Shown here: positions 3,273-62,782 of the stretch, piece by piece | How positions within the stretch are numbered: position 1 is the first letter of the stretch | How the letters are laid out: each line of letters starts with the position of its first letter | From: Escherichia phage vB_EcoM-LTH01 | Strand: one strand, 5' to 3' | Length of the DNA: 64,000 nucleotides | Sequence record: PP430345 | Notes under the pieces: model-generated | What the model was told of the DNA's origin: nothing | Databases searched by the model: none | The model's input: the letters and a program-made list of their open reading frames with translations, nothing else | Translations under genes and position numbers: made by a program

Positions 3273-3572
3273 TTGAAAAGGTTAATCATTTTATGTATAC
3301 TTCTTCTTGTTGGTTGCGGAGAGGGTGAAGATGAGCAGACAAAGCGATACAAAAATCTACCTTCTCTGATGCCAACAGAGGTTAAGGAGTTACACGAATT
3401 TTGCAAGAAGCAACACAATTATTACAACAGTTATGCGGTTGTTGTTGATGGTGAAGCAAAATCTGTAATTTGCAAGTTCAAAGATAGTGAACGTGAAAAA
3501 GGTATCTCCTCAGGTTATACGTGGGATGCTCAAAGTTTAAGAGATAAAATGAAGGGGGTTAAAAATGAGTAA
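3273..3572 (+). CDS. putative lipoprotein (TTG start)
   Basis: N-terminus MKRLIILCILLLVGCGEGED has signal peptide plus lipobox LVGC; GGAGG RBS at 3262-3266. Confidence 0.5.
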   Translation: MKRLIILCILLLVGCGEGEDEQTKRYKNLPSLMPTEVKELHEFCKKQHNYYNSYAVVVDGEAKSVICKFKDSEREKGISSGYTWDAQSLRDKMKGVKNE

Positions 3573-3753
3573 TGATCTTAGTTCACATGCGGTAATGGGA
3601 CCTGGTGGTGCACTGATCGGGATCGCAATCACAAAAGGTATTGCAAATGAAATTATCATGGAGTTTCAAAAGAAAGGTCGAACGGGTTACTATGCAACCC
3701 CTGTAGAAAGTTGGATGTTAGATTACTTTAAAGACGATACCGAGGAGGCTTAA
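3565..3753 (+). CDS. small Gly-rich membrane protein
   Basis: GPGGALIGIAITKGIA hydrophobic helix; overlaps neighbours by a few nt. Confidence 0.4.
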   Translation: MSNDLSSHAVMGPGGALIGIAITKGIANEIIMEFQKKGRTGYYATPVESWMLDYFKDDTEEA

Positions 3754-4340
3754 TGGAATACATTAGTTGGTTGTTTATCTTATCTGCGTGGGTTATCTTT
3801 GCTATCTGGTTAGCCCCTGTGATCATCGCTTTCCGTCGTAATCACAAGAACAAGGTTGTAATTTTAGCTTTGTCATTCTTTACTTCAATGATCCCTTACC
3901 CGCTTGCATTGTTTGCTTGTTGGATAGTTCTGTTGGCTTGGTCATTGTATAAAGTTTCAGTGGTCAATGATGGCTCAAAGTCTGCATATTTAGATTCTAA
4001 GTATCTTGAGTATGCAAAAGGACCGCAAGGTTTACCTGGTCCAATGGGTCCCCGTGGAGAGTCTGCTTATGAAACATACCTGAGAATTCTTCGTAAAGAA
4101 GATCCTAGCGCTATCCCACTAAATGAGAAGGATTGGCTGGATAGTTTAAAAGGGTTGGATGGTGACAAAGGTGATCGAGGGCCATCTGCATACGATCTGT
4201 ATTGCTTATCTGTATGGTCCAAAGGTGATGGTAAAGTACCTCTGTCTTTAGATGAGTGGCTAGAATCTCTCCGTGGTAAAGATGCAGACGAATTACCTTT
4301 ATCTAAAAAAGGTGTCGTTAGTCCACCAAAACGTCCTTGA
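3753..4340 (+). CDS. membrane protein with short collagen-like Gly-X-Y motifs
   Basis: Two N-terminal TM helices, then GPQGLPGPMGPRGESAYETYL and DGDKGDRGPSAYDLY motifs resembling modules of the collagen-like structural protein. Confidence 0.5.
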   Translation: MEYISWLFILSAWVIFAIWLAPVIIAFRRNHKNKVVILALSFFTSMIPYPLALFACWIVLLAWSLYKVSVVNDGSKSAYLDSKYLEYAKGPQGLPGPMGPRGESAYETYLRILRKEDPSAIPLNEKDWLDSLKGLDGDKGDRGPSAYDLYCLSVWSKGDGKVPLSLDEWLESLRGKDADELPLSKKGVVSPPKRP

Positions 4341-10602: not shown

Positions 10603-10863
10603 TTACTTGTTTTCGTCGGAAGGGTCTTTATCTTTTTTCAAAGATAATCCCCAACGGAGGTTGATGAGGTCACTCAACAGGTGTGGGGCCACTACCGTAG
10701 GGGCATAAAGCCATACGTACCATTCAGGCAATGTATTGTTGAATCCATACCAGAGAAAGACGGCAGTCATAGCAGCCATACCTACGTTAGACCAAAACTT
10801 CGTATGAGAAGCTTTATCTGGTTCCACCGCAGAGGTCACTAGGTCTTTGAGAAATTTTAACAT
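10603..10863 (-). CDS. small membrane protein (holin-like topology; function unknown)
   Basis: One hydrophobic helix plus charged C-terminus. Confidence 0.35.
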   Translation of the reverse strand: MLKFLKDLVTSAVEPDKASHTKFWSNVGMAAMTAVFLWYGFNNTLPEWYVWLYAPTVVAPHLLSDLINLRWGLSLKKDKDPSDENK

Positions 10864-10885
10864 AGATCACCTTCATTATCAATGT

Positions 10886-11344
10886 TCATACCATGTGGGC
10901 AATGAGCACTAGAAATATCACTACTGCTGTTCTTATCCATTCCGGTACGGTATTATCCTTCCAAGAATAAACGAACACAAAGGTTTCTATGAAATATTTG
11001 TGAGCGTCTCTAAGAGCGAATTCGTAAACCCATAAGGGGAACAATTCTGGATATTGGATTGCAAACACTTGAATAAGCATGAACGGAATACTTAGGCATA
11101 CGATAAGTTTTTGTCGTAATCCTTTCACTGTACAACCCATAGTGAAAAGCAGTATCGAATCCAATGTCCAGACGACATTAAAATAAAGAGTGATATCGAA
11201 ATTGATTTGCGTAGAGAAGAACCAAAGGATCAGGTTCTCCAATACGAGATAGGCCAGGCAAAGCCCAGCCATTATCTTTGTTCCACTCTCTTTTCGAGTA
11301 GCAAGGATTACGAAACAAATGCCATATATTATGGCTGTAATCAT
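10886..11344 (-). CDS. polytopic membrane protein
   Basis: About four hydrophobic segments. Confidence 0.45.
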   Translation of the reverse strand: MITAIIYGICFVILATRKESGTKIMAGLCLAYLVLENLILWFFSTQINFDITLYFNVVWTLDSILLFTMGCTVKGLRQKLIVCLSIPFMLIQVFAIQYPELFPLWVYEFALRDAHKYFIETFVFVYSWKDNTVPEWIRTAVVIFLVLIAHMV

Positions 11345-11673
11345 TTGCGGTTCTCAATAATTTTGTTTAGTAATTCTCGAATATCCTTCTGTAGAGCGTG
11401 GTTTTCTTCTTTTGCTTCCTTTCGCATATCTGTGATATCGGTCCTAATATCTTGGATCGTATCGGTGATATGTTTTATCTTACGGTCAAGAATGGCATCG
11501 ATACTATCCTTAGTAACCGCAGATTCCTTCAAGCGAAGAACATCTTTTTCAAGCTCACTTTGACGTGACTCTAATTTTTTAAAGTCGGTGTAAAAGATCT
11601 TTAATGCACCCAGCAAAATGAATGTTAAAAGACCCCAAAGTGCTTTCAGAACTGCCATTATATCAACAATCAT
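11341..11673 (-). CDS. membrane-anchored coiled-coil protein (start reassigned to internal ATG)
   Basis: ORF-track start 11706 lies inside a GC hairpin (11685-11708); GGAGA RBS precedes ATG at 11673 (MIVDIMAVLK...); N-terminal TM then heptad-rich charged domain. Confidence 0.4.
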   Translation of the reverse strand: MIVDIMAVLKALWGLLTFILLGALKIFYTDFKKLESRQSELEKDVLRLKESAVTKDSIDAILDRKIKHITDTIQDIRTDITDMRKEAKEENHALQKDIRELLNKIIENRK

Positions 11674-11712
11674 AAGTCTCCATAGTCGGGCCGAAGCCCG
11701 ACTCATCTAAGG

Positions 11713-37322: not shown

Positions 37323-38855
37323 TCAATTTTCTAAATTAGAAACTGAATTATCTCTTGTTCCGCTAATCTTTGCAGTCCCGTTTCCAGAAGTCCCCTGTGC
37401 AAAGCCATCGCCAGAACGACTGGTATTATCTCCAAGGAGAAGCATAAGTTCTTCTTGCGAAATATCTTCACCAACTTGATAATCGATTCCAAGAACATCA
37501 AGAATGCGATTAATAACTTCCGGTGTCTTAGGCAAGTAGCCGACAGCACCCATACGCTGAACCGCTTTAGAGAAACCTTCCATGTCTGTATCAACGATCT
37601 GACCAAATTTAACGAATGGCATTTCTTTTTCTGCCAGACGAATACCGTTCAGAGCCAGAAGCTGAGGGAGCAGGTTTTCATTCAGTGCTTCAGCGATAAT
37701 TTCATTAACACGTTGTACAAATTGAGTATGGATAGTTTGTTTTGATTCCGACAGGTTGTATGAACCAGAAGCATCATTACCTACGTTCAGGAATCCCGCG
37801 CCCAGACGATCAAGGATTGATTTTTTACGATCACTGATCAGGTCACGAGTACTGTACTGTTTACCCATACCGTCAATGCCCTTCAGAGACATTGAGTACA
37901 GGGGTGAGTTATCTTTAACGTCAGACGGTAACATAAAGAAAGATTGCTCGCCTGAGTGGGCGTTTGCGGCATCCATCATTAGACCTTGAACCATCTCAGC
38001 TTCGTAGCTGGAAGGGTCGATAGCTGCTTTGTTAAGAATAGCAGAAGGAATCTTCAGTTCGATAACACCACCCATGTCTTTCGTAGCACCAACAACTTCA
38101 AGGTTCTCGATAAGAACTTTTTCACGCCAAGGTCGGTAACAAGCAACCAGCGGAGAAACGCCGAGCGCTTGAGAAGAAGAACCGCCAGTCGTCATGATCA
38201 TCAGCTTGTTTGCTGGAATAACAACATCATTCCCTCTACGAGAACCAGTCAGGCCACTCATAGAAGCACCAAGTGGACTATCTGTGTAGTTCTTGAAAGA
38301 ATCAAGTGACTGTTTAACACCAATAACACGAGAACCATCATCGCTGTACACGAGAGGGTTTTTACGACTCAGAGAAGCCTGTGGACGGAATGCAAGGTTT
38401 TTAATCTTAAATCGTCCTGCATATTCACCAGTCTGGATCTGAGTATATACCTTCTCAACTACAGAGATGCCGTATTCGTTAAATGTGGCAGCGTCACGGG
38501 CAAATTGACGCAGGGTTTGACCTTCCATGTTACGAAGGCAGAAGGTAATGAACTCGGCTGCGTCTTGAGACTCTTTAGATTTGCCAGGGATTACTTTGAA
38601 GTCCTTGAATGCTTTCTCTACGAAAGTGTAAAGCATATCAAGACCAGTCGCTACCGTAGCATCTTGTTTCATAGCTTCAACTGTACCGATCAATTGAGGC
38701 CATTTAATTTCTTCAGCTTTCATGCGTTCAGTTTCTACCTGAACCTTAGCTAAAGCAAAAGTACCTTGCTCACTCATTCGTAAACGAGCAACGTTTAATT
38801 CTTCGCTCGTCGCTTTACGAACCTGTGTGTTGCGACCTTTATTCTTCTTCTTCAA
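37323..38855 (-). CDS. portal protein
   Basis: 510 aa immediately downstream of terminase large subunit. Confidence 0.6.
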   Translation of the reverse strand: MKKKNKGRNTQVRKATSEELNVARLRMSEQGTFALAKVQVETERMKAEEIKWPQLIGTVEAMKQDATVATGLDMLYTFVEKAFKDFKVIPGKSKESQDAAEFITFCLRNMEGQTLRQFARDAATFNEYGISVVEKVYTQIQTGEYAGRFKIKNLAFRPQASLSRKNPLVYSDDGSRVIGVKQSLDSFKNYTDSPLGASMSGLTGSRRGNDVVIPANKLMIMTTGGSSSQALGVSPLVACYRPWREKVLIENLEVVGATKDMGGVIELKIPSAILNKAAIDPSSYEAEMVQGLMMDAANAHSGEQSFFMLPSDVKDNSPLYSMSLKGIDGMGKQYSTRDLISDRKKSILDRLGAGFLNVGNDASGSYNLSESKQTIHTQFVQRVNEIIAEALNENLLPQLLALNGIRLAEKEMPFVKFGQIVDTDMEGFSKAVQRMGAVGYLPKTPEVINRILDVLGIDYQVGEDISQEELMLLLGDNTSRSGDGFAQGTSGNGTAKISGTRDNSVSNLEN

Positions 38856-38870
38856 AATAATTCCCCTCAG

Positions 38871-40358
38871 TTATCGTCTATACCTGGAATACATCGTAGG
38901 GGCGTGAGGTCGTGGTATTGGAACAGCACGGACAATTTCTGTTTTCTCCAGATAGTTAATACCCGAAGAGATGGCATCCACCCAGTCGTCCTTACGTGAT
39001 CCAGTTGACCTCTCGCCGTCGAAAGATTCAAGTTCCTTCAATAAAGCTTCTAATGTGTCCACAGGGAAAGATTTCTCAACAATCCGTACAAATCCGTTCT
39101 GTGCTAAGTTAGCGAACGGAGAGAAGCGTACAAGCTTCTTTTTGTTACCTGGTGTTGGGTCTTTCTCAACCATGAACCCTTGATTCAATAACTCACGAGA
39201 AGATGTAGTAAATTCGGATAGACCTGCTTGACCAGGGTCAACAGGGAAGATGATCCTAACGTCATCTCCGTCATGTATTGCCTGTTTAAGAATAATCTTG
39301 TCACGCTCACCTGCTTTTTTGCAGAAGCGTCCGGCTTGTCCAGTGGACCAATCGCCAGTATCAACGAATTCATCACAATAATCACCGAACAGGTAGTAGA
39401 ACCCATCCTGATCTCGCGCTACACCTATACCTGCCGTGAAGTCAGGTGTTTTGTTACCTGTGGAACGCTCTGTACCTGCTTTATCGTAAGATCTAACCTT
39501 GTCGCAATTAAGCGGGAGATGATCTACATTTTTGAGGAAAGAACGTTTAAAATAGTTTGCACCCTGCGGACGAGCATCCCAGTTACCATGAAGAAGTCGT
39601 GCACGGTCAACCTCGTTAAGACCTTCCAACTGAGCAAGGTATTCGGGGTTGTTGATAAGCATTGGCGGGTTGTCATAAATAGTGGAAGATATGAATGTGA
39701 ACGATACGGGCTTACATTTCTTACCATAACGTTTCTTCAACTCCTCTACTGAGTCTCCCCACATGTATTGGTCATCCACACGGACGAAATAACGAATAAC
39801 TCCGTCTTTTTCAGGATTAGGATAGCCATCCTTATCGAGATACCAGTCAACCATCTTACGAAGGTAATGATCAGGATCAGGGTTGCAACTTATTACCATA
39901 CGGGAAGGGTATTTTGAGTTTGAACGCAAACGGGACATCATATATTCCAACTGTTCCCATTCGAACTGTGTTCCTTCGTCAACTCCGATAAAGGTAAACT
40001 CCAATCCCTGAATATCGAATTTATCGCTTACGTGTTGCATAGACTGCCATTTAACGGTAGCCCCGTTAGGAAATGTTGCAGTCATTTCATTTTCTTTAAA
40101 CTTAGGCTTAACTACCGGAGGTAGTTGGTTGTAAATATCCTTAGCTTTGTCGAACAAACCACCTTGTCCACGAATCTGAGGGACGGTACGACGGAACATG
40201 ATACATGCTGTTCTGGGGTCGTTTACAATCAACAAAGGCATCAACTGGAGCAGGTAGGACTTACCTGATCCTGCTGCACCACCTATAACCATTATTTGTG
40301 CGTCAGATTCGAGAACCATTTGTTGCTTTCGACTCGCTGGTGCGAATGTAGCAGACAT
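38871..40358 (-). CDS. terminase large subunit
   Basis: Walker A GGAAGSGKS near N-terminus, Walker B-like FIGVDEGTQF, C-terminal nuclease-sized domain; first gene of head module. Confidence 0.85.
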   Translation of the reverse strand: MSATFAPASRKQQMVLESDAQIMVIGGAAGSGKSYLLQLMPLLIVNDPRTACIMFRRTVPQIRGQGGLFDKAKDIYNQLPPVVKPKFKENEMTATFPNGATVKWQSMQHVSDKFDIQGLEFTFIGVDEGTQFEWEQLEYMMSRLRSNSKYPSRMVISCNPDPDHYLRKMVDWYLDKDGYPNPEKDGVIRYFVRVDDQYMWGDSVEELKKRYGKKCKPVSFTFISSTIYDNPPMLINNPEYLAQLEGLNEVDRARLLHGNWDARPQGANYFKRSFLKNVDHLPLNCDKVRSYDKAGTERSTGNKTPDFTAGIGVARDQDGFYYLFGDYCDEFVDTGDWSTGQAGRFCKKAGERDKIILKQAIHDGDDVRIIFPVDPGQAGLSEFTTSSRELLNQGFMVEKDPTPGNKKKLVRFSPFANLAQNGFVRIVEKSFPVDTLEALLKELESFDGERSTGSRKDDWVDAISSGINYLEKTEIVRAVPIPRPHAPTMYSRYRR

Positions 40359-40458
40359 AATTCTCCTTTAGTTCTTGACTTGAACTGATAAAAGGTATAT
40401 TACCATAAAAAGGATAAAAAATAAAGGCCAATGCATAAAAGCACTGACCTTGTCAACA

Positions 40459-40758
40459 TTATTTGCAGAACTCTGGTGGATTTTCTTTAAAAATATTACA
40501 AACGTAGGTCTGTAATCCTTCAGCACGTCTTTCTATTCTTGCAGCACGAAGATTGTTATGACTAAGAACGTCAGCAACAGTTGTCTTTGCAGAGCGTTTT
40601 TCCATAACCAGCTTAGGACCTTCTTTCTTCATAAGTTCAAGATCCGGCTTTTCGATCAGCTTTTCTATCTTAACTTCTTCAGTAGGACCACAAATTTCTT
40701 TACTCTGACAACCAACAAGACCAAAACAAAGGATAATTCCGGCGATAATCTTCTTCAT
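40459..40758 (-). CDS. outer-membrane lipoprotein, o-spanin-like
   Basis: MKKIIAGIILCFGLVGC has signal peptide plus lipobox; several Cys; start overlaps stop of upstream TM/coiled-coil gene. Confidence 0.45.
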   Translation of the reverse strand: MKKIIAGIILCFGLVGCQSKEICGPTEEVKIEKLIEKPDLELMKKEGPKLVMEKRSAKTTVADVLSHNNLRAARIERRAEGLQTYVCNIFKENPPEFCK

Positions 40759-41117
40759 TATTCCCCCAGTGATTTGTTATAGATATCAACTATCTCATCA
40801 TCCATAAATATTTCTTGTCCCTTTTTAGATTTTGCATAGTCGATTCTCATTGCCTCTACTTCATCACGTAATTTTTCCTCAGCGATGATCCGTTTTGCAT
40901 TTGCATAAGAAAGTTCTTCATTCAATCTCTTATTCTCTTCCAATGTAGAGTCAAGCTTTCCTTTGTACTCAGTAGCTTTCTTTATCCAAGCCGTGTTTGC
41001 AGCATCGTAGCCTTTGTCATATCCCACAGACTCAACGTGTCCGAGATACAGTTTTCCAGAAGTAAATAACGCAACGCCGATCATTGCGTAAATGAAATAT
41101 TTTTTAGCGGGTAACAT
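40758..41117 (-). CDS. inner-membrane coiled-coil protein, i-spanin-like (start at internal ATG 41117)
   Basis: AAGGAGGA RBS 7 nt before ATG (MLPAKKYFIY...); N-terminal TM then coiled-coil; upstream ATG 41174 would fall inside a terminator. Confidence 0.45.
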   Translation of the reverse strand: MLPAKKYFIYAMIGVALFTSGKLYLGHVESVGYDKGYDAANTAWIKKATEYKGKLDSTLEENKRLNEELSYANAKRIIAEEKLRDEVEAMRIDYAKSKKGQEIFMDDEIVDIYNKSLGE

Positions 41118-41154
41118 ATAAATCCTCCTTTTGGATATTTTATCACCGAAATCA

Positions 41155-41186
41155 CAAATAAAAAAGCCTCCCAAATGAGGGAGGCT
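41155..41186 (-). terminator. intrinsic terminator ending the tRNA operon
   Basis: Hairpin GCCTCCC-TCATTT-GGGAGGC followed on minus strand by TTTTTTATTTG. Confidence 0.6.
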
Positions 41187-41234
41187 GAGGCGAAGGAGAG
41201 GAGATTATATTATTGTTATTATATGAGGGTAAAT

Positions 41235-41309
41235 TGGCTGGGGATACTGGACTCGAACCAGTGAATGTTGGAATCAAAATCCAATGCCTTACCGCTTGGC
41301 TAATCCCCA
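41235..41309 (-). tRNA. tRNA-Gln (anticodon TTG)
   Basis: Manual cloverleaf: 7-bp acceptor, anticodon arm TTGGA-TTTTGAT-TCCAA, T-arm ACTGG-TTCGAGT-CCAGT, encoded CCA; close to E. coli tRNA-Gln. Confidence 0.8.
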
Positions 41310-41317
41310 TTTTTGTT

Positions 41318-41393
41318 TGGAGCGGATAACGAGACTCGAACTCGTGACATTCTGATTGGAAATCAGAAGCTCTACCAACTGAGCTATACCCGC
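41318..41393 (-). tRNA. tRNA-Gly (anticodon TCC)
   Basis: D-arm GCTCAGTTGGTAGAGC, anticodon arm TCTGA-TTTCCAA-TCAGA, T-arm ACGAG-TTCGAGT-CTCGT, CCA encoded. Confidence 0.8.
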
Positions 41394-41398
41394 ATATT

Positions 41399-41475
41399 TG
41401 GTCGGTGTACGAGGATTTGAACCTCGAACCTAATGCTCCCAAAGCATTCGCGCTACCAAGTTGCGCTATACACCG
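41399..41475 (-). tRNA. tRNA-Pro (anticodon TGG)
   Basis: Anticodon arm AATGC-TTTGGGA-GCATT, T-arm CGAGG-TTCAAAT-CCTCG, CCA encoded. Confidence 0.8.
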
Positions 41476-41479
41476 TATT

Positions 41480-41560
41480 TGGCGTGAAGGTGAAGAGTCG
41501 AACTCCTTACGACTGGTTTTGGAGGCCAGCTTGCCACCGTGACAATTATGTTACCCGCAC
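41480..41560 (-). tRNA. tRNA-Trp-like (anticodon CCA), atypical 5' half
   Basis: Anticodon loop CTCCAAA and T-arm GGAGTTCGA resemble tRNA-Trp, but acceptor pairing needs a mismatch and the D-arm region is ~5 nt too long. Confidence 0.4.
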
Positions 41561-41569
41561 ATTAATTTG

Positions 41570-41642
41570 GTTTCCGTACTGGATTCGAACCAGTATCACA
41601 ACGAGACGTTGCGGGAATCTTATCCTATAAGCCTAACGGAAA
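41570..41642 (-). tRNA. tRNA-like element, possibly non-functional
   Basis: Perfect acceptor (TTTCCGT/ACGGAAA), U8-A9 and T-arm ACTGG-TTCGAAT-CCAGT, but anticodon-position hairpin has a 3-nt TCT loop on a 7-bp stem. Confidence 0.3.
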
Positions 41643-41645
41643 ATT

Positions 41646-41732
41646 TGGTGCATTGTGATGGAGTCGAACCACCCGAGTTCTATGAACAGCAGATTTACAG
41701 TCTGCCCCGCTACCCCTACGGTCTAACAATGC
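41646..41732 (-). tRNA. tRNA-Tyr (anticodon GTA), long variable arm
   Basis: Anticodon arm GCAGA-CTGTAAA-TCTGC identical to E. coli tRNA-Tyr; variable arm GTTC-ATA-GAAC; perfect 7-bp acceptor; CCA encoded. Confidence 0.8.
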
Positions 41733-42040
41733 CTTATCCTACGGTCACACAAGTCTGACCATCTATCTCTGAGCAAGGGATTTCAAAATGTCTCCCGTCC
41801 CCAAATACATCTCGCCACATAGTCTATTCGGAAGCGGGAGTCTATGCACACCCCTTGCGGTAAGTGACCTCACTTTGAGATCAGCATCTTCCTTATTCGA
41901 CGAGTTAAATTCTCTTTAAGGTAGCCAGTGTTCGCAGCACTAACTATGAGGTATCCGTAAGATGATTTCAGTCATCTACCGAAAAATTACACCAAGCAAC
42001 TACCTTAAAGAGAACTTCTTAGTAAAGGCCCTTGCGAGCC

Positions 42041-42415
42041 TTAATCTTCACCTTCTGCCATTTTATACTCACGAATCTGAGTAGTTAATGGAATAGCATC
42101 TTTAAATGCATCAGAAGGGCCTTGATGAGTTTCTGAATTTGCAGAAGTAGTTCCTCCTGCCAGATCCTCTTCATTATCTTCCATTGTGTACAGATTGTTT
42201 GCCTTTTCAGCTTGCTCAAGAATATACTTCGCAGTAGTTTCTTTAACTTTCTCTGTACCGGAAGTCAGTAGACCTTCCAGAGTTTTAATTGCTTGAGGAG
42301 TAAGTCTTGCAAACTCGGAACGAGCATGAAGAATTGCTCTCTCAGTATTGATTGCAATGCTTTCCTCTGTAGTAGGCCGACCGCGTTTTCGAGTAACGAT
42401 TTCAGCTTTAGCCAT
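42041..42415 (-). CDS. hypothetical early protein (basic N-terminus RKRGRPTTEE, acidic C-terminus)
   Basis: ORF track 42041-42421; ATG 42415 preferred (GAGG + 5-nt spacer); promoter-like hexamers just upstream. Confidence 0.45.
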   Translation of the reverse strand: MAKAEIVTRKRGRPTTEESIAINTERAILHARSEFARLTPQAIKTLEGLLTSGTEKVKETTAKYILEQAEKANNLYTMEDNEEDLAGGTTSANSETHQGPSDAFKDAIPLTTQIREYKMAEGED

Positions 42416-42442
42416 AAACACCTCAATTCAGTCGATATAACT

Positions 42443-42471
42443 ATATTAGCAGTATAATAGGATTATGTCAA
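42443..42471 (-). promoter_or_regulatory. putative sigma70-like promoter (TTGACA-17-TAATAT)
   Basis: Consensus -35 and 4/6 -10 read on minus strand upstream of the 42415 start. Confidence 0.4.
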
Positions 42472-42607
42472 GAACTTATTGAAATGTATTAAGAAATGAA
42501 ATGGGGGTGCGCCGTTTCTGCTGTAATCTACGTCGTTATCGTTGAGGGAACTCGTAGTCAGGGAACATCAGTCCGACGACTTATCGGGAGCGACCCGACT
42601 TCTTATG

Positions 42608-42682
42608 TGGTGGCCCTGGGTGGAATCGAACCACCGTCTGGCGATTATGAGTCGCTTGCTTGAACCGTCCAGCTACAGGGCC
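42608..42682 (-). tRNA. tRNA-Met (anticodon CAT; initiator vs elongator vs tRNA-Ile2 not resolved)
   Basis: Perfect acceptor GGCCCTG/CAGGGCC, anticodon loop CTCATAA, T-arm GGTGG-TTCGATT-CCACC, discriminator A, CCA encoded. Confidence 0.75.
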
Positions 42683-42780: not shown

Positions 42781-43093
42781 GCTAAATTCTCTTGTGGGTG
42801 GTGACAGGTTTTGGATATTTAACGACAGGATAACCTTAAACCTCGTCATCATGACAAGGGGTACACCGTAAAAGATTGTCGTGGTATTAAAACTATAATG
42901 ATCCGTGGATCACTAATCAGACGATCTTCGACGGCTCCCCGATATACACAGGGATGGACTGGGCATCCCATTTAGTCGCAGTCAACCAAAAGCGTAAATC
43001 GCGGCGGTGGTATATTGGTTCCAACATATATTTATCCACCCAGCCTTCAAGATGACTAATCTCTCAGGCAACAAAATAATCTTACATATTTAA

Positions 43094-43276
43094 TCAGCTA
43101 TTGTCAACAGGTTTTTTACCATTAATGCAGAGATTACACATCACTGATCTCTTTGGTCCTAAAAACCTGTAACCGCAAACAAAACACTGACAAGTGTAGC
43201 CTTTTTGTTTTTCATGGTTGCGAGGATCATCGAAACTTAGAGATTCAAAGGTCTGGTCTTTCATCATACATCCCAA
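43094..43276 (-). CDS. small zinc-ribbon-like protein (CQCFVCG ... CNLC)
   Basis: ORF track; two Cys pairs. Confidence 0.4.
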   Translation of the reverse strand: MGCMMKDQTFESLSFDDPRNHEKQKGYTCQCFVCGYRFLGPKRSVMCNLCINGKKPVDNS

Positions 43277-43371
43277 TTCTCCTCGTTAATAATTCCTTCT
43301 CCGAATCCTACGAAACCATCAAATTCGTCTTTCATTAACCTTCTCCGTATCCAATCATGTATCTTCTCCTA

Positions 43372-43590
43372 TTACAGTTTAACAACACTAACGCTAAAGC
43401 CAGGTATGGTTTTACACTCAGCTTCCATAGATTCAAGAGTCCCTTCAACAAGTTCTTTTTCTACAGCTTCGAAAATCTCTTCGATGCTCAAGCCGGACTT
43501 TTCCATCTTAGCTTTTAACATCTCTTCCATATCTTCGTTAGTGTAGTCAATTTCATAAGTAACCTTGAGTTCTACAACCTGTTTAGTCAT
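43372..43590 (-). CDS. small acidic protein (paralog A)
   Basis: 72 aa, E/D-rich; shares pattern with adjacent 74-aa ORF. Confidence 0.45.
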   Translation of the reverse strand: MTKQVVELKVTYEIDYTNEDMEEMLKAKMEKSGLSIEEIFEAVEKELVEGTLESMEAECKTIPGFSVSVVKL

Positions 43591-43807
43591 TGGCGATCTC
43601 CGAAACGGTAACTTCAGTAGTTAACCCAGGGAATTCTGAATCATCATTAGGGAACTGTTCTACAAACCCCTCAAGAAATTGCTGCGGGAATGTCTTGTAG
43701 AGTTCTTCAACTGTAATACCTTGACGCTCAGAAGCTTCTTTCATTTCTTTGCTAAGAGCTTCATTAGTCTTATCTACGGTAAAGTTCAATGTAATGCTAA
43801 ATTTCAT
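43583..43807 (-). CDS. small acidic protein (paralog B)
   Basis: 74 aa, E/D-rich; overlaps neighbour by 8 nt. Confidence 0.45.
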   Translation of the reverse strand: MKFSITLNFTVDKTNEALSKEMKEASERQGITVEELYKTFPQQFLEGFVEQFPNDDSEFPGLTTEVTVSEIAND

Positions 43808-44052
43808 TTTGCCTCCATAAAAGTCATCTTGTAACGAGAAGTTAAGTCACCCTCGTTGGGGTAGAAGAAGTATATTCGATTTCCTTTCCCAAAGTCAATC
43901 TTTTTCCAACACTCCAGAGAAAACCCTGTAGTCTCAAAAGCAATGTCGTTACCCTCATCGAAAGCTTCATCATAGCTGTTAAAGGTATCGATATACTCTT
44001 CCGTTACGTATCCAGCAGCACCGTATTCCAGTGCAAGTTTAAAGTTTTTCAT
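43804..44052 (-). CDS. small acidic protein
   Basis: 82 aa, acidic/aromatic; translationally coupled. Confidence 0.45.
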   Translation of the reverse strand: MKNFKLALEYGAAGYVTEEYIDTFNSYDEAFDEGNDIAFETTGFSLECWKKIDFGKGNRIYFFYPNEGDLTSRYKMTFMEAK

Positions 44053-44110
44053 ATTAGTTAACCAGTCAAATAAAAGTATACCTCCATTTTACTGGCATAA
44101 CCAATGATAG

Positions 44111-44356
44111 TCAATGTAACTCAAGCGATTGAAGAAGTCCAGAAATTTCTTCTTCAAGTTTAGACTCTATTTGAATCTCCTTACATGGAATCATAAACTC
44201 TGGAACCATATCGGCATAAACTCTCTCAGAAACGATTTGAGCGTTCATTGCACTCCAGTCAAGAAAAGACATGACTTCATCTGTTTCTTTCATGAGAGAG
44301 CTTCCTATTGCGTTTAAACGGCATTCTGAAACCTGATTCACGATTACCTCCATCAA
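44111..44356 (-). CDS. hypothetical protein
   Basis: ORF track; overlaps upstream stop. Confidence 0.4.
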   Translation of the reverse strand: MMEVIVNQVSECRLNAIGSSLMKETDEVMSFLDWSAMNAQIVSERVYADMVPEFMIPCKEIQIESKLEEEISGLLQSLELH

Positions 44357-44739
44357 TATCCGTACTTCTCTTTAAGTATTGGGTCGTTAACCACAATGTA
44401 ATGACGTGGTTTCGACTTCCCGTTGATTATCACCTTATCTCTGTAAATCCTGATGTAACCGCCAGTCTCCATCTTCTTAAGGAATGCACTTACCTTGGCT
44501 TGACTGGTCGGTGACATTTGAAACAACTCACACAATGCCACCTGTGATTCATAGAAACACGTTTCCACTGATTCGCCCTGTCGAGAAGCAAACTCCGCAA
44601 AGAATGAAAATCTCCACCTCAAAAGTATCATCCTCTTTAAATCCTCGCCGGACATTTCAGTAACCCAACGAAGAGGAAGCATGGCGAACGCATCGTCTTC
44701 AAAAGTCTTCTTCCCAACAGAGGTGTTTATCTCAAACAT
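44353..44739 (-). CDS. putative winged-helix DNA-binding protein (first gene of leftward early operon)
   Basis: C-terminal SQAKVSAFLKKMETGGYIRIYRDKV resembles a wHTH recognition helix plus wing; AAGAGGAGG RBS; adjacent to repeat-rich control region. Confidence 0.4.
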   Translation of the reverse strand: MFEINTSVGKKTFEDDAFAMLPLRWVTEMSGEDLKRMILLRWRFSFFAEFASRQGESVETCFYESQVALCELFQMSPTSQAKVSAFLKKMETGGYIRIYRDKVIINGKSKPRHYIVVNDPILKEKYGY

Positions 44740-49273: not shown

Positions 49274-49735
49274 GTGGAAGCTTTAATTATCGCTGTTGTG
49301 GGGATTACACTTTACCTTTCCGTAATTTTGGGCGTTCCCGTGTTGCTTACTCGTAAGCCAGCAGGTAAGATCTTGAAGTTGATTCGTGAAGGATCTTCTC
49401 GGTTTGAGGTACATTCTGGAGTTTTTGTTCCTGAGGGCCATGAAGATCCTTGTGAGGATAATGATGATCTTTGGTATGTTGATTATACAATTGTTGATAC
49501 GGTCACAGGTAAGGTTACTTACATTGAAAAGGTTTGTGGTATTATCTCCGATAGCCTTTTCGTAAATGGCGATCTGTTCTGGATGAATGATTATGAAGGT
49601 ACACGACTTTACCACACCTGTCGTCGAATCGTTAAGCGACGTAATAAGGCTTCAAAAAAGGACAAACGATCTAAGTTCGAGATCGAAAAGGATGAAGCAC
49701 GTAAAGTTGCACTAGAAACTTATAAAGACTGTTGA
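49274..49735 (+). CDS. membrane-anchored hypothetical protein
   Basis: N-terminal hydrophobic helix; basic C-terminus. Confidence 0.4.
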   Translation: MEALIIAVVGITLYLSVILGVPVLLTRKPAGKILKLIREGSSRFEVHSGVFVPEGHEDPCEDNDDLWYVDYTIVDTVTGKVTYIEKVCGIISDSLFVNGDLFWMNDYEGTRLYHTCRRIVKRRNKASKKDKRSKFEIEKDEARKVALETYKDC

Positions 49736-62287: not shown

Positions 62288-62782
62288 ATGTTGTACGAGG
62301 AGATTAAAATGGGTTTTAAGAAAGAAGTTAAATACGGTGCAGTAACTCTGGATTTCATTTTGGAATGTGCAAAAATCATGAACTTCGACCCGAAGGATGA
62401 CAAAACTCTTCGTAAAGTCCTTCACCTGATCGGTTTCCAAGTTTCAATTCTGAATGAAGAGACTGGTGAGTATAAACCTTGCCAGATTGACCGAATTAAC
62501 CGAGTGAATGTGCGTTGTATTGATAAACCGTACCTTTGCCGTGAAACAACAGTGTTTTCTGGACGTTTACGTGACAAATCAGAATTCCCACTGGTAGATA
62601 TCTACGAAAAGATGGATATCTTAGATGTTAGCAGTTCTAAAGCAACAGCTTTTGTTAATTCTTTGGATTTTGATATTCCGGTTGTTGAAAAAGTGAATAC
62701 CCGTAAATACACACGAAAAGAAGATCGTTCTGAAACAATCGTTATGGATCTTCCTGAGTTTTCTGAGACACTGATTAAATAA
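62288..62782 (+). CDS. hypothetical protein
   Basis: ORF track; GAGGAGA RBS. Confidence 0.45.
   Translation: MLYEEIKMGFKKEVKYGAVTLDFILECAKIMNFDPKDDKTLRKVLHLIGFQVSILNEETGEYKPCQIDRINRVNVRCIDKPYLCRETTVFSGRLRDKSEFPLVDIYEKMDILDVSSSKATAFVNSLDFDIPVVEKVNTRKYTRKEDRSETIVMDLPEFSETLIK

What the first reader, a model, noticed from the sequence alone, without database searches (positions are those of the whole stretch)
40459..41117. Spanin-like pair occupies the slot upstream of terL where a small terminase is expected; no TerS recognisable in the window
Seen in sequence: immediately upstream of terL are a TM plus coiled-coil protein and an overlapping lipobox lipoprotein (i-spanin/o-spanin architecture), preceded by the tRNA operon terminator. 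No small basic DNA-binding ORF typical of TerS is present nearby. Either TerS is encoded elsewhere or is highly divergent, or these two proteins are not spanins; no holin or endolysin was identified beside them.
Basis: partly seen in the sequence, partly recalled or inferred. Interest (0 to 1): 0.4.

Follow-up and report, generated by a model that had tools for sequence, protein, structure and literature searches.

The report
Known spanin pair; probable hidden TerS
The two small genes just upstream of the large terminase are an ordinary, already described spanin (outer-membrane lysis) pair of rV5-like phages, and the "missing" small terminase is most likely an unannotated 124-residue DNA-binding protein about 1 kb further upstream, beyond the tRNA genes.

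Summary
On the minus strand, a TM plus long-helix protein (40758-41117) and a lipobox lipoprotein (40459-40758) overlap by one base (TAATG). They lie between the tRNA-operon terminator and terL (38871-40358). Both match the "Rz-like spanin" PHROGs of Vequintavirinae (2.5e-20, 2.4e-14). The window is 98% identical to Escherichia phage UPEC06.

A spanin pair beside terL, away from any lysis cassette, is already published for CB7, rV5, PVP-SE1, LL12 and the BASEL phages, so the finding itself is not new.

No known TerS family matched any of 57 window ORFs. However, the ORF at 42041-42415 (phrog_3330, "unknown") has an invariant AT-hook (RGRP), a confident helical hairpin, an acidic linker and a conserved C-terminal motif. 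In relatives with other layouts (Aeromonas phage phiA009 and three metagenomic lineages) this gene abuts terL. In another lineage it sits directly before a spanin pair and terL. Its Bas54 ortholog is essential (1 of 20 TA sites hit) among dispensable neighbours.

Most likely reading: terS and terL were separated by insertion of a terminator-bracketed spanin cassette and a tRNA array. I put the spanin call at about 0.9 and the TerS call at about 0.6. The TerS call rests on synteny and essentiality, not homology.

The parts
40758..41117 (-). i-spanin gene: 119 aa, N-terminal transmembrane helix plus a long periplasmic alpha-helix (stop codon included)
   Evidence: phrog_4297 'Rz-like spanin' E 2.5e-20, residues 4-118 of 119. 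Hydrophobic segment at 8-26. AF2 helices 4-31, 33-101, 107-117. 99-100% identical in UPEC06, W70 and A73; 31-38% identical to Certrevirus proteins annotated 'Rz-like spanin'. C-terminal motif IVDIYNKSLGE is shared with the Av-05, MaxTheCat, Kashira, SSBI34 and L023 proteins.
40459..40758 (-). o-spanin gene: 99-aa outer-membrane lipoprotein precursor. Its ATG shares one base with the i-spanin stop (TAATG).
   Evidence: phrog_1267 'Rz-like spanin' E 2.4e-14. Lipobox LVGC, Cys17, +2 Gln, mature length 83 aa with 5 Pro and 4 Cys. Relatives are annotated 'Rz-like spanin', 'o-spanin' or 'membrane lipoprotein'.
41165..41186 (-). Intrinsic terminator ending the tRNA transcription unit, just upstream of the spanin pair
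   Evidence: 8-bp GC-rich stem plus UUUUUUAUUU. -16.7 kcal/mol, z -4.71, 0 of 200 shuffles as stable.
41136..41145 (-). Promoter-like extended -10 element TGATAAAATA, 19 nt upstream of the i-spanin ATG
   Evidence: TGNTAAAATA gives 5 hits, all minus strand and all just upstream of late genes, against 1.05 expected. TGNTAAWATA gives 8 hits against 1.71 expected, with 0 of 100 shuffles reaching 8.
40424..40451 (-). Terminator-like hairpin plus U-tract between the o-spanin stop and terL
   Evidence: 11-bp stem followed by UAUUUUUUAU. -16.7 kcal/mol, z -5.15, 0 of 200 shuffles as stable.
40396..40405 (-). Promoter-like element TGGTAATATA, 38 nt upstream of the terL ATG
   Evidence: Member of the TGNTAAWATA set. 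Sequence context.
38871..40358 (-). terL, terminase large subunit (495 aa)
   Evidence: phrog_979 1.3e-210. Pfam Terminase_6N 4.9e-22 and Terminase_6C 2.5e-8.
41235..41732 (-). tRNA array (Tyr, Pro, Gly, Gln) lying between the TerS candidate and the spanin pair. A further tRNA-Met lies upstream at 42608-42682.
   Evidence: ARAGORN.
42041..42415 (-). Candidate small terminase (124 aa from ATG 42415; the ORF extends to GTG 42421). Layout: AT-hook RKRGRP, helical hairpin, acidic linker, conserved C-terminal PLTTxIREYKM.
   Evidence: - Family: phrog_3330 'unknown function' 3.5e-29.
- Conserved motifs: RGRP is invariant across the family; weak Pfam AT_hook matches in 6 of 23 members.
- Structure: AF2 helices 18-54 and 57-87 with pLDDT about 90.
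- Synteny: family members abut terL in L019, L021, L025/phiA009 and L029, and precede spanin-spanin-terL in L023/L024.
- Essentiality: Bas54 ortholog bas54_0220 is essential.
- Against: no homology to any known TerS.
42443..42471 (-). Sigma-70-like promoter TTGACA-17-TAATAT upstream of the TerS candidate. Its -10 region, extending one base further to 42442, matches the late-type element as TGCTAATATA.

Best explanation
The two genes at 40459-41117 are a genuine two-component spanin of the Vequintavirinae type.

- The i-spanin is anchored in the inner membrane by its N-terminal helix and reaches across the periplasm as a long alpha-helix.
- The o-spanin is a lipoprotein sorted to the outer membrane.
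- The two are inferred to bind through their conserved C-terminal regions and, after holin and endolysin have acted, to disrupt the outer membrane (by fusing it with the inner membrane, on the model proposed for Rz/Rz1) so that progeny escape.

In this phage the pair forms its own small transcription unit. It is bracketed by two intrinsic terminators and preceded by the same extended -10 element found before the late morphogenesis genes, so it is probably made late.

The pair does not replace TerS. The most likely TerS is the 124-aa protein at 42041-42415. Its proposed parts are an N-terminal AT-hook that would bind AT-rich DNA in the minor groove, a helical hairpin that would oligomerise, and a conserved C-terminal peptide on a flexible acidic linker that would dock onto TerL.

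The ancestral layout terS-terL survives in Plateaulakevirus-like Aeromonas phages. In the rV5-like lineage a spanin cassette, and later a tRNA array, were inserted between the two genes.

Shown: the anatomy, the family memberships, the synteny in relatives, and the essentiality of orthologs. Inferred: the spanin mechanism, late timing, TerS function, and the order of insertions.
For: Spanins:
- PHROG matches over most or all of each protein: phrog_4297 at 2.5e-20 (residues 4-118 of 119) and phrog_1267 at 2.4e-14 (residues 1-93 of 99). The same families fit the curated BASEL i-/o-spanins and the Av-05 pair at 1e-22 to 1e-49.
- TM segment, lipobox LVGC with Cys17 and +2 Gln, and the TAATG junction. 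AF2 long helix 33-101.
- The literature describes this pair next to terL in CB7, rV5 and PVP-SE1 (PMC7344957), in LL12 (PMC6658697) and in Bas54.
- Bas54 spanin genes took 0 of 29 and 0 of 19 transposon hits. The T4-like Bas37 spanins, which are not upstream of any essential gene, are also depleted.
- Flanking terminators and the late-type motif.

TerS candidate:
- It directly abuts terL in L019, L021, L025/L030 (Aeromonas phage phiA009) and L029. In L019, L021 and L025 the stop codon is followed at once by the terL start, and the GGAGG ribosome-binding site lies in the candidate's last codons (...NFGG*).
- L023/L024 show candidate, i-spanin-like, o-spanin-like lipoprotein, then terL.
- The order candidate, tRNAs (or other ORFs), spanins, terL is conserved across Vequintavirinae. 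The family is present in 220 phage records.
- bas54_0220 is essential (1 of 20 TA sites hit), while the flanking ORFs and tRNAs tolerate insertions. Homology to the window ORF was confirmed.
- Invariant RGRP, a confident hairpin and a conserved C-terminal motif.
- No other ORF in the window matches a TerS family.
Against: Spanins:
- No member of these two families has been tested directly for spanin function in anything I could find.
- The zero insertions in Bas54 could partly reflect polarity on terL.

TerS candidate:
- The central hairpin resembles a HEAT-like repeat only weakly.
- In the window the gene has a canonical TTGACA -35 box like the early genes of Certrevirus. It is co-transcribed with tRNAs, which would also suit an early DNA-binding regulator.
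- One marginal family member (P0058) has no terL within 10 kb.
- Several other essential genes of unknown function in Bas54 remain possible TerS candidates (bas54_0087, 0101, 0102, 0110 and 0184, plus unannotated genes of the structural block).
- Oligomerisation, DNA binding and TerL binding are all untested.
Confidence: 0.6

Rival explanations
1. The pair are spanins, but the 124-aa AT-hook protein is not TerS. On this view it is an essential DNA-binding regulator or architectural protein, for example a factor needed for the early-to-late transcription switch or for replication. The real TerS would be another unannotated gene, inside or outside the window.
For: - No homology to any TerS and uninformative fold searches.
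- Canonical sigma-70 promoter with a TTGACA -35 box, like the putative early promoters of Certrevirus.
- One GenBank record calls a homolog 'putative regulatory protein'.
- Bas54 has other essential genes of unknown function, such as bas54_0087, 0101, 0102, 0110 and 0184. The window homolog of 0184 (62288-62782) is also unexplained.
Against: - A regulator has no obvious reason to be translationally coupled to terL, yet the stop and start codons abut, with the RBS inside the last codons, in L019, L021 and L025; in L029 the gene lies 17 nt upstream of terL.
- The gene stays on the terL side of the genome in every layout seen except one marginal member.
- Its -10 region matches the element shared with terL and the late genes.
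- Its three-part layout (DNA-binding N-terminus, helical core, conserved tail on a linker) is what TerS proteins usually show. That comparison is from general knowledge and was not tested here.
Confidence: 0.3
2. This phage group has no small terminase at all: TerL alone, or TerL with a host factor, recognises and packages the DNA.
For: No recognisable TerS in the window, in the curated BASEL annotation over the regions I examined, or in the P7_Pc analysis, which identified only TerL (PMC9769974).
Against: TerS-less packaging in vivo is not established for tailed phages with T4-type TerL (general knowledge). A conserved, essential small gene sits in the TerS slot in relatives.
Confidence: 0.05
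3. The two small membrane proteins are not spanins. They would instead serve packaging or assembly, for example by tethering the terminase or prohead to the membrane, which would explain their place beside terL and their essentiality.
For: The position next to terL is conserved across the subfamily. No holin or endolysin is adjacent. Bas54 orthologs tolerate no insertions. The spanin function of this particular family has never been tested directly.
Against: - Both defining topologies are present (type II membrane protein with a long helix; lipoprotein with a non-Asp +2 residue), and the gene order and junction are typical of spanins.
- Both match spanin PHROGs.
- Spanin pairs unlinked to lysis cassettes and next to terminase genes are documented in T4, SP6 and VP4.
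- In this window the pair is insulated from terL by a terminator.
- T4-like spanins are equally depleted in the same plaque-based screen.
Confidence: 0.03

Closest known systems
Vequintavirinae spanin pair: CB7_252/253, rV5 and PVP-SE1 equivalents, LL12 gp66/gp65, BASEL bas54_0001/0002 and bas57_0001/0002
   Same: Same PHROG families (4297 and 1267), the same gene order with a small stop/start overlap (1 nt here as in CB7; 4 nt in Av-05, Kashira and the BASEL phages), and the same position immediately upstream of terL away from endolysin and holin. The i-spanin C-terminal motif (I/V)D(I/L/V)YNxSL is conserved.
   Different: Only 22-45% identity to genera outside its own clade. Here, and in Certrevirus, Kashira, SSBI34 and Av-05, a gap of about 100 nt separates the o-spanin from terL. 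That gap holds a terminator-like hairpin in this window; the relatives' gaps were not folded. In Vequintavirus the o-spanin and terL abut.
T4 PseT.3 / PseT.2 spanins
   Same: Separated (non-embedded) architecture with a tiny overlap, almost identical sizes (117/99 aa against 119/99 aa), and no linkage to holin or endolysin. The o-spanin ends in Cys-X10-Cys-Lys in both.
   Different: Different PHROG families (739 and 812 against 4297 and 1267) with no significant pairwise similarity (best E 0.095 over 31 aa). The T4 pair sits among early nucleotide-metabolism genes, not beside terL.
Lambda Rz / Rz1
   Same: The same two-component logic: a type II inner-membrane protein with a coiled-coil periplasmic domain, plus an outer-membrane lipoprotein. 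This rests on established knowledge and on the citation.
   Different: Lambda Rz1 is embedded in the +1 frame of Rz and lies in the lysis cassette. Here the genes are separate and isolated. The i-spanin here has no cysteines, so lambda-type intermolecular disulfides are not possible for it.
T4 gp16-type small terminase (comparison for the 124-aa candidate)
   Same: A small protein with a short N-terminal DNA-binding part, a central pair of long antiparallel helices and a C-terminal tail, partnered with a T4-type TerL (Terminase_6N/6C). The gp16 architecture is recalled from the literature and was not tested here.
   Different: No detectable sequence or fold similarity. DNA binding would be through an AT-hook, which to my knowledge and in the searched literature has not been described for a phage TerS. 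In the window the gene is 1.7 kb from terL.

Membership tests
Two-component spanin (i-spanin / o-spanin, Rz/Rz1 equivalents) | i-spanin: a single N-terminal transmembrane helix (type II topology) | tested here: met
   Best 19-residue hydropathy window at 8-26 (FIYAMIGVALFTSGKLYLG, KD 1.39), preceded by Lys5 and Lys6. AF2 helix 4-31. No dedicated TM predictor was available.
Two-component spanin (i-spanin / o-spanin, Rz/Rz1 equivalents) | i-spanin: periplasmic domain largely alpha-helical or coiled coil | tested here: met
   AF2 helix 33-101 with pLDDT 86-95 over residues 41-90, then a short helix 107-117. 40% of residues after the TM segment are charged.
Two-component spanin (i-spanin / o-spanin, Rz/Rz1 equivalents) | o-spanin: signal peptidase II signal with lipobox Cys; +2 residue not Asp (outer-membrane sorting); small mature protein | tested here: met
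   MKKIIAGIILCFGLVGC; lipobox LVGC, Cys17, +2 Gln, mature length 83 aa.
Two-component spanin (i-spanin / o-spanin, Rz/Rz1 equivalents) | Adjacent genes on one strand, i-spanin first, in embedded, overlapped or separated arrangement | tested here: met
   Separated type; stop and start share one base (TAATG) at 40758.
Two-component spanin (i-spanin / o-spanin, Rz/Rz1 equivalents) | Sequence membership in families annotated as spanins | tested here: met
   phrog_4297 2.5e-20 and phrog_1267 2.4e-14. The same families fit the curated BASEL spanins. Pfam has no hit.
Two-component spanin (i-spanin / o-spanin, Rz/Rz1 equivalents) | Function: needed for outer-membrane disruption (Mg2+-dependent lysis defect; complements lambda Rz/Rz1) | not testable with these tools
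   Indirect only. Bas54 orthologs took 0 of 29 and 0 of 19 transposon hits on plates; polarity on terL cannot be excluded.
Terminase small subunit (TerS), for the ORF at 42041-42415 | Homology to a described TerS family or solved TerS structure | tested here: not met
Terminase small subunit (TerS), for the ORF at 42041-42415 | Gene immediately upstream of terL on the same strand | tested here: inconclusive
   Not met in the window, where 1.7 kb holding 4 tRNAs and the spanin pair intervene. Met for family members in L019, L021, L025/phiA009 and L029: stop and start abut with the RBS inside the last codons in L019, L021 and L025, and a 17-nt gap separates the genes in L029. In L023/L024 only the spanin pair intervenes. 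Not met for the marginal member P0058.
Terminase small subunit (TerS), for the ORF at 42041-42415 | Small protein with a DNA-binding N-terminus, a helical oligomerisation core and a C-terminal TerL-binding tail | tested here: inconclusive
   The layout is compatible: invariant RGRP AT-hook, helices 18-54 and 57-87 at pLDDT about 90, a disordered acidic linker and a conserved PLTTxIREYKM motif. Oligomerisation and TerL binding were not tested.
Terminase small subunit (TerS), for the ORF at 42041-42415 | Essential for phage propagation | tested here: met
   Published HIDEN-SEQ data: ortholog bas54_0220 had 1 of 20 TA sites hit and was called 'Essential', while its neighbours are non-essential. 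Orthology was checked. Essentiality alone is not specific to TerS.
Terminase small subunit (TerS), for the ORF at 42041-42415 | Forms a ring oligomer, binds pac/cos DNA and modulates TerL ATPase or nuclease activity | not testable with these tools
   Needs biochemistry or multimer structure prediction.

The most novel reading that the evidence does not exclude
phrog_3330 would be a previously unrecognised small-terminase family. It would use an N-terminal AT-hook, rather than a helix-turn-helix, to recognise DNA, with a single helical hairpin as its core.

This would supply the missing TerS for more than 200 sequenced rV5-like (Vequintavirinae) and Plateaulakevirus-like phages. In the rV5-like lineage, terS and terL would have been split apart by insertion of a self-contained spanin cassette and a tRNA array.
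Probability: 0.55. Interest if true: 0.45.

Novelty: already known. Interest (0 to 1): 0.3.

Why it matters
The flagged feature itself changes nothing. It is the normal, published layout of rV5-like phages, and the pair should simply be annotated i-spanin and o-spanin.

The useful by-product is a concrete, testable TerS candidate for a phage subfamily used in therapy and biocontrol. In this subfamily curated annotations and papers report only TerL, and 220 database records label the gene hypothetical, unknown, or in one case putatively regulatory. If confirmed, the candidate would do three things:

- add a new TerS architecture to annotation libraries;
- help define the packaging signal and packaging mode of these phages, where reports conflict between circular permutation and short terminal repeats;
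- explain one of the 15 essential genes of unknown function in Bas54.

Tried and rejected
- **PDB sequence and profile searches.** Only designed ARM/HEAT repeats and chance hits.
- **Exhaustive HMM search of 1.84 billion representatives.** Only 19 hits, all of the same small family, with no bridge to a known TerS.
- **Metagenome scan with a distant-member profile.** One short contig (L020) sharing only the AT-hook; rejected as a family member.
- **Viral-contig scans with P0054, P0058 and P0060.** Nothing found.
- **Endolysin and holin in the window.** The ORF after DNA ligase (49274-49735), which holds the position of the Vequintavirus endolysin, is instead a membrane protein (phrog_12581). 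The MaxTheCat endolysin has no hit in the window.
- **The 128-aa ORF at 44353-44739 as a TerS candidate.** This ORF (phrog_8453) lies in roughly the position that the putative transcriptional regulator bas57_0217 holds in MaxTheCat; no sequence similarity was detected and the correspondence was not mapped gene by gene. It matched no TerS family, and every Bas54 gene from 0203 to 0219 tolerates insertions. Dropped, provisionally.
- **The window homolog of essential bas54_0184 (62288-62782).** No informative hit anywhere. Left open.
- **T4 spanin families.** Checked as possible homologs of the pair; they belong to different PHROGs.
Full report
**Origin of the window.** The region 38800-42500 is 98% identical over its full length to Escherichia phage UPEC06 (Vequintavirinae). 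It is 96-97% identical over the spanin, tRNA and upstream-ORF part to phages A7_1, A73, W70 and A5-4. More distant relatives belong to Certrevirus, Avunavirus, Vequintavirus and unclassified Vequintavirinae (Kashira, SSBI34). They share the same gene order around terL.

**The observation.** All genes here are on the minus strand.
- terL is 38871-40358 (phrog_979 1.3e-210; Pfam Terminase_6N/6C).
- A 99-aa ORF (40459-40758) lies 100 nt upstream. It starts MKKIIAGIILCFGLVGC, with lipobox LVGC, Cys17 and Gln at +2.
- Its ATG shares one base with the stop codon of a 119-aa ORF (ATG 41117, Shine-Dalgarno AAGGAGGA). That protein has a hydrophobic N-terminal segment (residues 8-26) followed by a highly charged region. 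A single-sequence AF2 model folds it as helix 4-31, a long helix 33-101 (pLDDT 86-95 over residues 41-90) and a short helix 107-117.
- Upstream lies a stable hairpin with a U-tract (41165-41186; -16.7 kcal/mol, z -4.7), right after tRNA-Gln.

The description at 40459-41117 is therefore accurate.

**What the pair is.** The two proteins match PHROG families annotated "Rz-like spanin": phrog_4297 at 2.5e-20 over residues 4-118 of 119, and phrog_1267 at 2.4e-14. The same two families fit the curated i-/o-spanins of the BASEL phage MaxTheCat and the Av-05 pair at 1e-22 to 1e-49. T4 PseT.3 and PseT.2 fall in different families.

RefSeq records of CR3, CR8, CR9, PBES 02 and phiTE label the orthologs "Rz-like spanin". 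The literature already states the point of the finding. Buttimer et al. 2020 (PMC7344957) describe the Rz/Rz1 pair CB7_252/253 as follows:
- it is conserved in Certrevirus, rV5 and PVP-SE1;
- the stop and start codons overlap, as in T4;
- SP6 and VP4 show a similar arrangement.

The LL12 announcement names gp66 and gp65 as i- and o-spanin next to TerL gp64. [quoted passage not shown] In that screen the Bas54 spanin genes took 0 of 29 and 0 of 19 insertions. The spanins of the T4-like Bas37, which are not upstream of any essential gene, are also almost free of insertions.

I conclude with about 0.9 confidence that this is a two-component spanin. The mechanism is inferred from the family, not shown here: the two proteins would form a complex spanning the periplasm and disrupt the outer membrane after holin and endolysin have acted.

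**Local organisation.** The pair is bracketed by two hairpin-plus-U-tract structures of equal stability, one at 41165-41186 and one at 40424-40451 (z -5.15). A 10-nt element, TGNTAAWATA, occurs 8 times in the window against 1.7 expected, and none of 100 shuffles reached 8. Seven copies are on the minus strand, each 19-45 nt upstream of a gene start: four late structural genes, terL (40396-40405), the i-spanin (41136-41145) and the ORF discussed below (42442-42451). I read this as a probable late promoter element and the spanin pair as an insulated late cassette. That is an inference from sequence only.

**Is a TerS recognisable?** I scanned 57 window ORFs against PHROGs and 17 of them also against Pfam. 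None matched a terminase small-subunit family. The curated BASEL annotation names none in the regions I examined: it starts with i-spanin, o-spanin, terL. The P7_Pc paper states that only TerL could be identified. So that part of the observation also holds.

**A candidate.** The ORF at 42041-42415 (124 aa from the ATG; the ORF extends to a GTG at 42421) lies 0.9 kb upstream of the i-spanin, beyond four tRNA genes. It belongs to phrog_3330, "unknown function" (3.5e-29).
- Alignments show an invariant R-x-x-G-R-P AT-hook near the N-terminus, then a helical region, an acidic low-complexity linker and a conserved C-terminal motif PLTTxIREYKM.
- AF2 with 25 sequences gives helices 18-54 and 57-87 at pLDDT about 90, with the rest disordered.
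- The whole protein is acidic (pI 5.0) but its first 20 residues are basic (pI about 10). That explains why a search for a small basic ORF missed it.
- The family is small: 19 representatives among 1.84 billion proteins. Within its group it is widespread, with 220 phage records, nearly all labelled hypothetical or unknown.

**Evidence that it is TerS.**

Synteny in relatives with other layouts:
- In the metagenomic viral contig L019 the family member (785-1132; phrog_3330 3.2e-13) ends ...NFGG-TAA. The terL start codon follows at once, with the GGAGG ribosome-binding site formed by its last codons. Then come terL (split by an HNH intron), portal, protease, scaffold, decoration protein and major capsid protein.
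- The same abutting junction occurs in L021, whose member is only 36% identical to the L019 protein, and in Aeromonas phage phiA009, genus Plateaulakevirus (phiA009_0112 next to the "putative terminase large subunit"). In L029 the gene lies 17 nt upstream of terL.
- In L023/L024 the order is family member, a 133-aa TM/coiled-coil protein ending FAEMYNQSL, a 100-aa lipoprotein (lipobox VVGC), then terL. Both middle proteins match the same spanin PHROGs. This layout lies between the Aeromonas-phage arrangement and the one in the window.

Essentiality:
- The Bas54 ortholog bas54_0220 lies at the syntenic position before the tRNA array. It is 29% identical over 109 aa (E 2e-14).
- It took 1 insertion at 20 TA sites and is called essential. 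The flanking ORFs and tRNAs tolerate insertions freely.

Its -10 region carries the element shared with terL and the late genes.

**Evidence against.**
- There is no sequence or fold similarity to any known TerS.
- The gene also has a perfect TTGACA -35 box, like the putative early promoters described for Certrevirus.
- One marginal family member has no terL within 10 kb.
- Bas54 has several other essential genes of unknown function.

An essential DNA-binding regulator remains a real alternative. I put TerS at about 0.6.

**Most likely history (inference).** The ancestral terS-terL pair is retained in the Plateaulakevirus-like phages. A spanin cassette was inserted between the two genes, giving the L024-type layout. 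In Vequintavirinae, tRNA arrays of variable size and occasional ORFs then accumulated between terS and the spanins.

**Verdict.** The finding is real but ordinary, since the arrangement is the published norm for this subfamily. Its open question, where TerS is, now has a specific, testable and apparently unannotated answer.

Noticed in passing
window 10603-11706 (-): Three consecutive small membrane proteins sit inside the late tail-fibre block. The first (11341-11706, 121 aa) has one TM and a coiled coil, belongs to phrog_5345, and weakly matches spanin families phrog_739 (0.0023) and phrog_7686 (0.0049). The second (10886-11344, 152 aa) is polytopic (phrog_7451). The third (10603-10863, 86 aa) also has a TM segment. 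They could be holin or lysis-timing candidates, since no holin is known for this group.
   Followed up: no
window 3273-3572 (+) and 3753-4340 (+): A second lipoprotein of 99 aa (lipobox LVGC, Cys15; phrog_15849) weakly matches the T4 PseT.2-type o-spanin family phrog_812 (0.0067). It lies near a protein matching 'immunity to superinfection' (phrog_1039, 2.7e-6). This may be a superinfection-exclusion module rather than a lysis module.
   Followed up: no
window minus strand: 16044, 19542, 26494, 37272, 40396, 41136, 42442: The element TGNTAAWATA lies 19-45 nt upstream of late genes, terL, the i-spanin and the TerS candidate, often right after a terminator. There are 8 hits against 1.7 expected, and none on the plus-strand early or replication blocks. 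It is a candidate late promoter for this phage group.
   Followed up: partly
window 49274-49735 (+): The ORF immediately after DNA ligase, where Vequintavirus phages encode their endolysin, is here a 153-aa protein with an N-terminal hydrophobic segment (phrog_12581 'membrane protein'). No scanned window ORF matched an endolysin family, so the endolysin of this phage probably lies outside it.
   Followed up: partly
L019 1502-2767; L021 5790-6122; L025 5778-6093; L023 5446-7980; L029 4408-6837: terL of the relatives is repeatedly interrupted. L019 has an HNH-endonuclease intron, L021 and L025 have split terL ORFs, and L023 and L029 have unusually long terL ORFs (844 and 809 aa) that may hold inteins. 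The window's terL (495 aa) is uninterrupted.
   Followed up: no
L023 4897-5162: In one relative a GC-rich, apparently structured non-coding insert of about 265 nt separates the i-spanin-like and o-spanin-like genes. These genes abut in its close relative L024.
   Followed up: no
window 62288-62782 (+): A 164-aa protein (phrog_5557, unknown) lies in the position of bas54_0184, next to thymidylate synthase; sequence similarity to bas54_0184 was not checked. bas54_0184 is essential in the HIDEN-SEQ screen. The window protein has no Pfam or PDB match.
   Followed up: partly
window 43094-44739 (-): A run of small, mostly acidic ORFs is preceded by sigma-70-like promoters (for example TTGACA-17-TAAGAT at 43079-43107). 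The run ends in the TerS candidate and the tRNA array. It includes a 60-aa protein with two Cys-X2-Cys pairs (phrog_8931).
   Followed up: no
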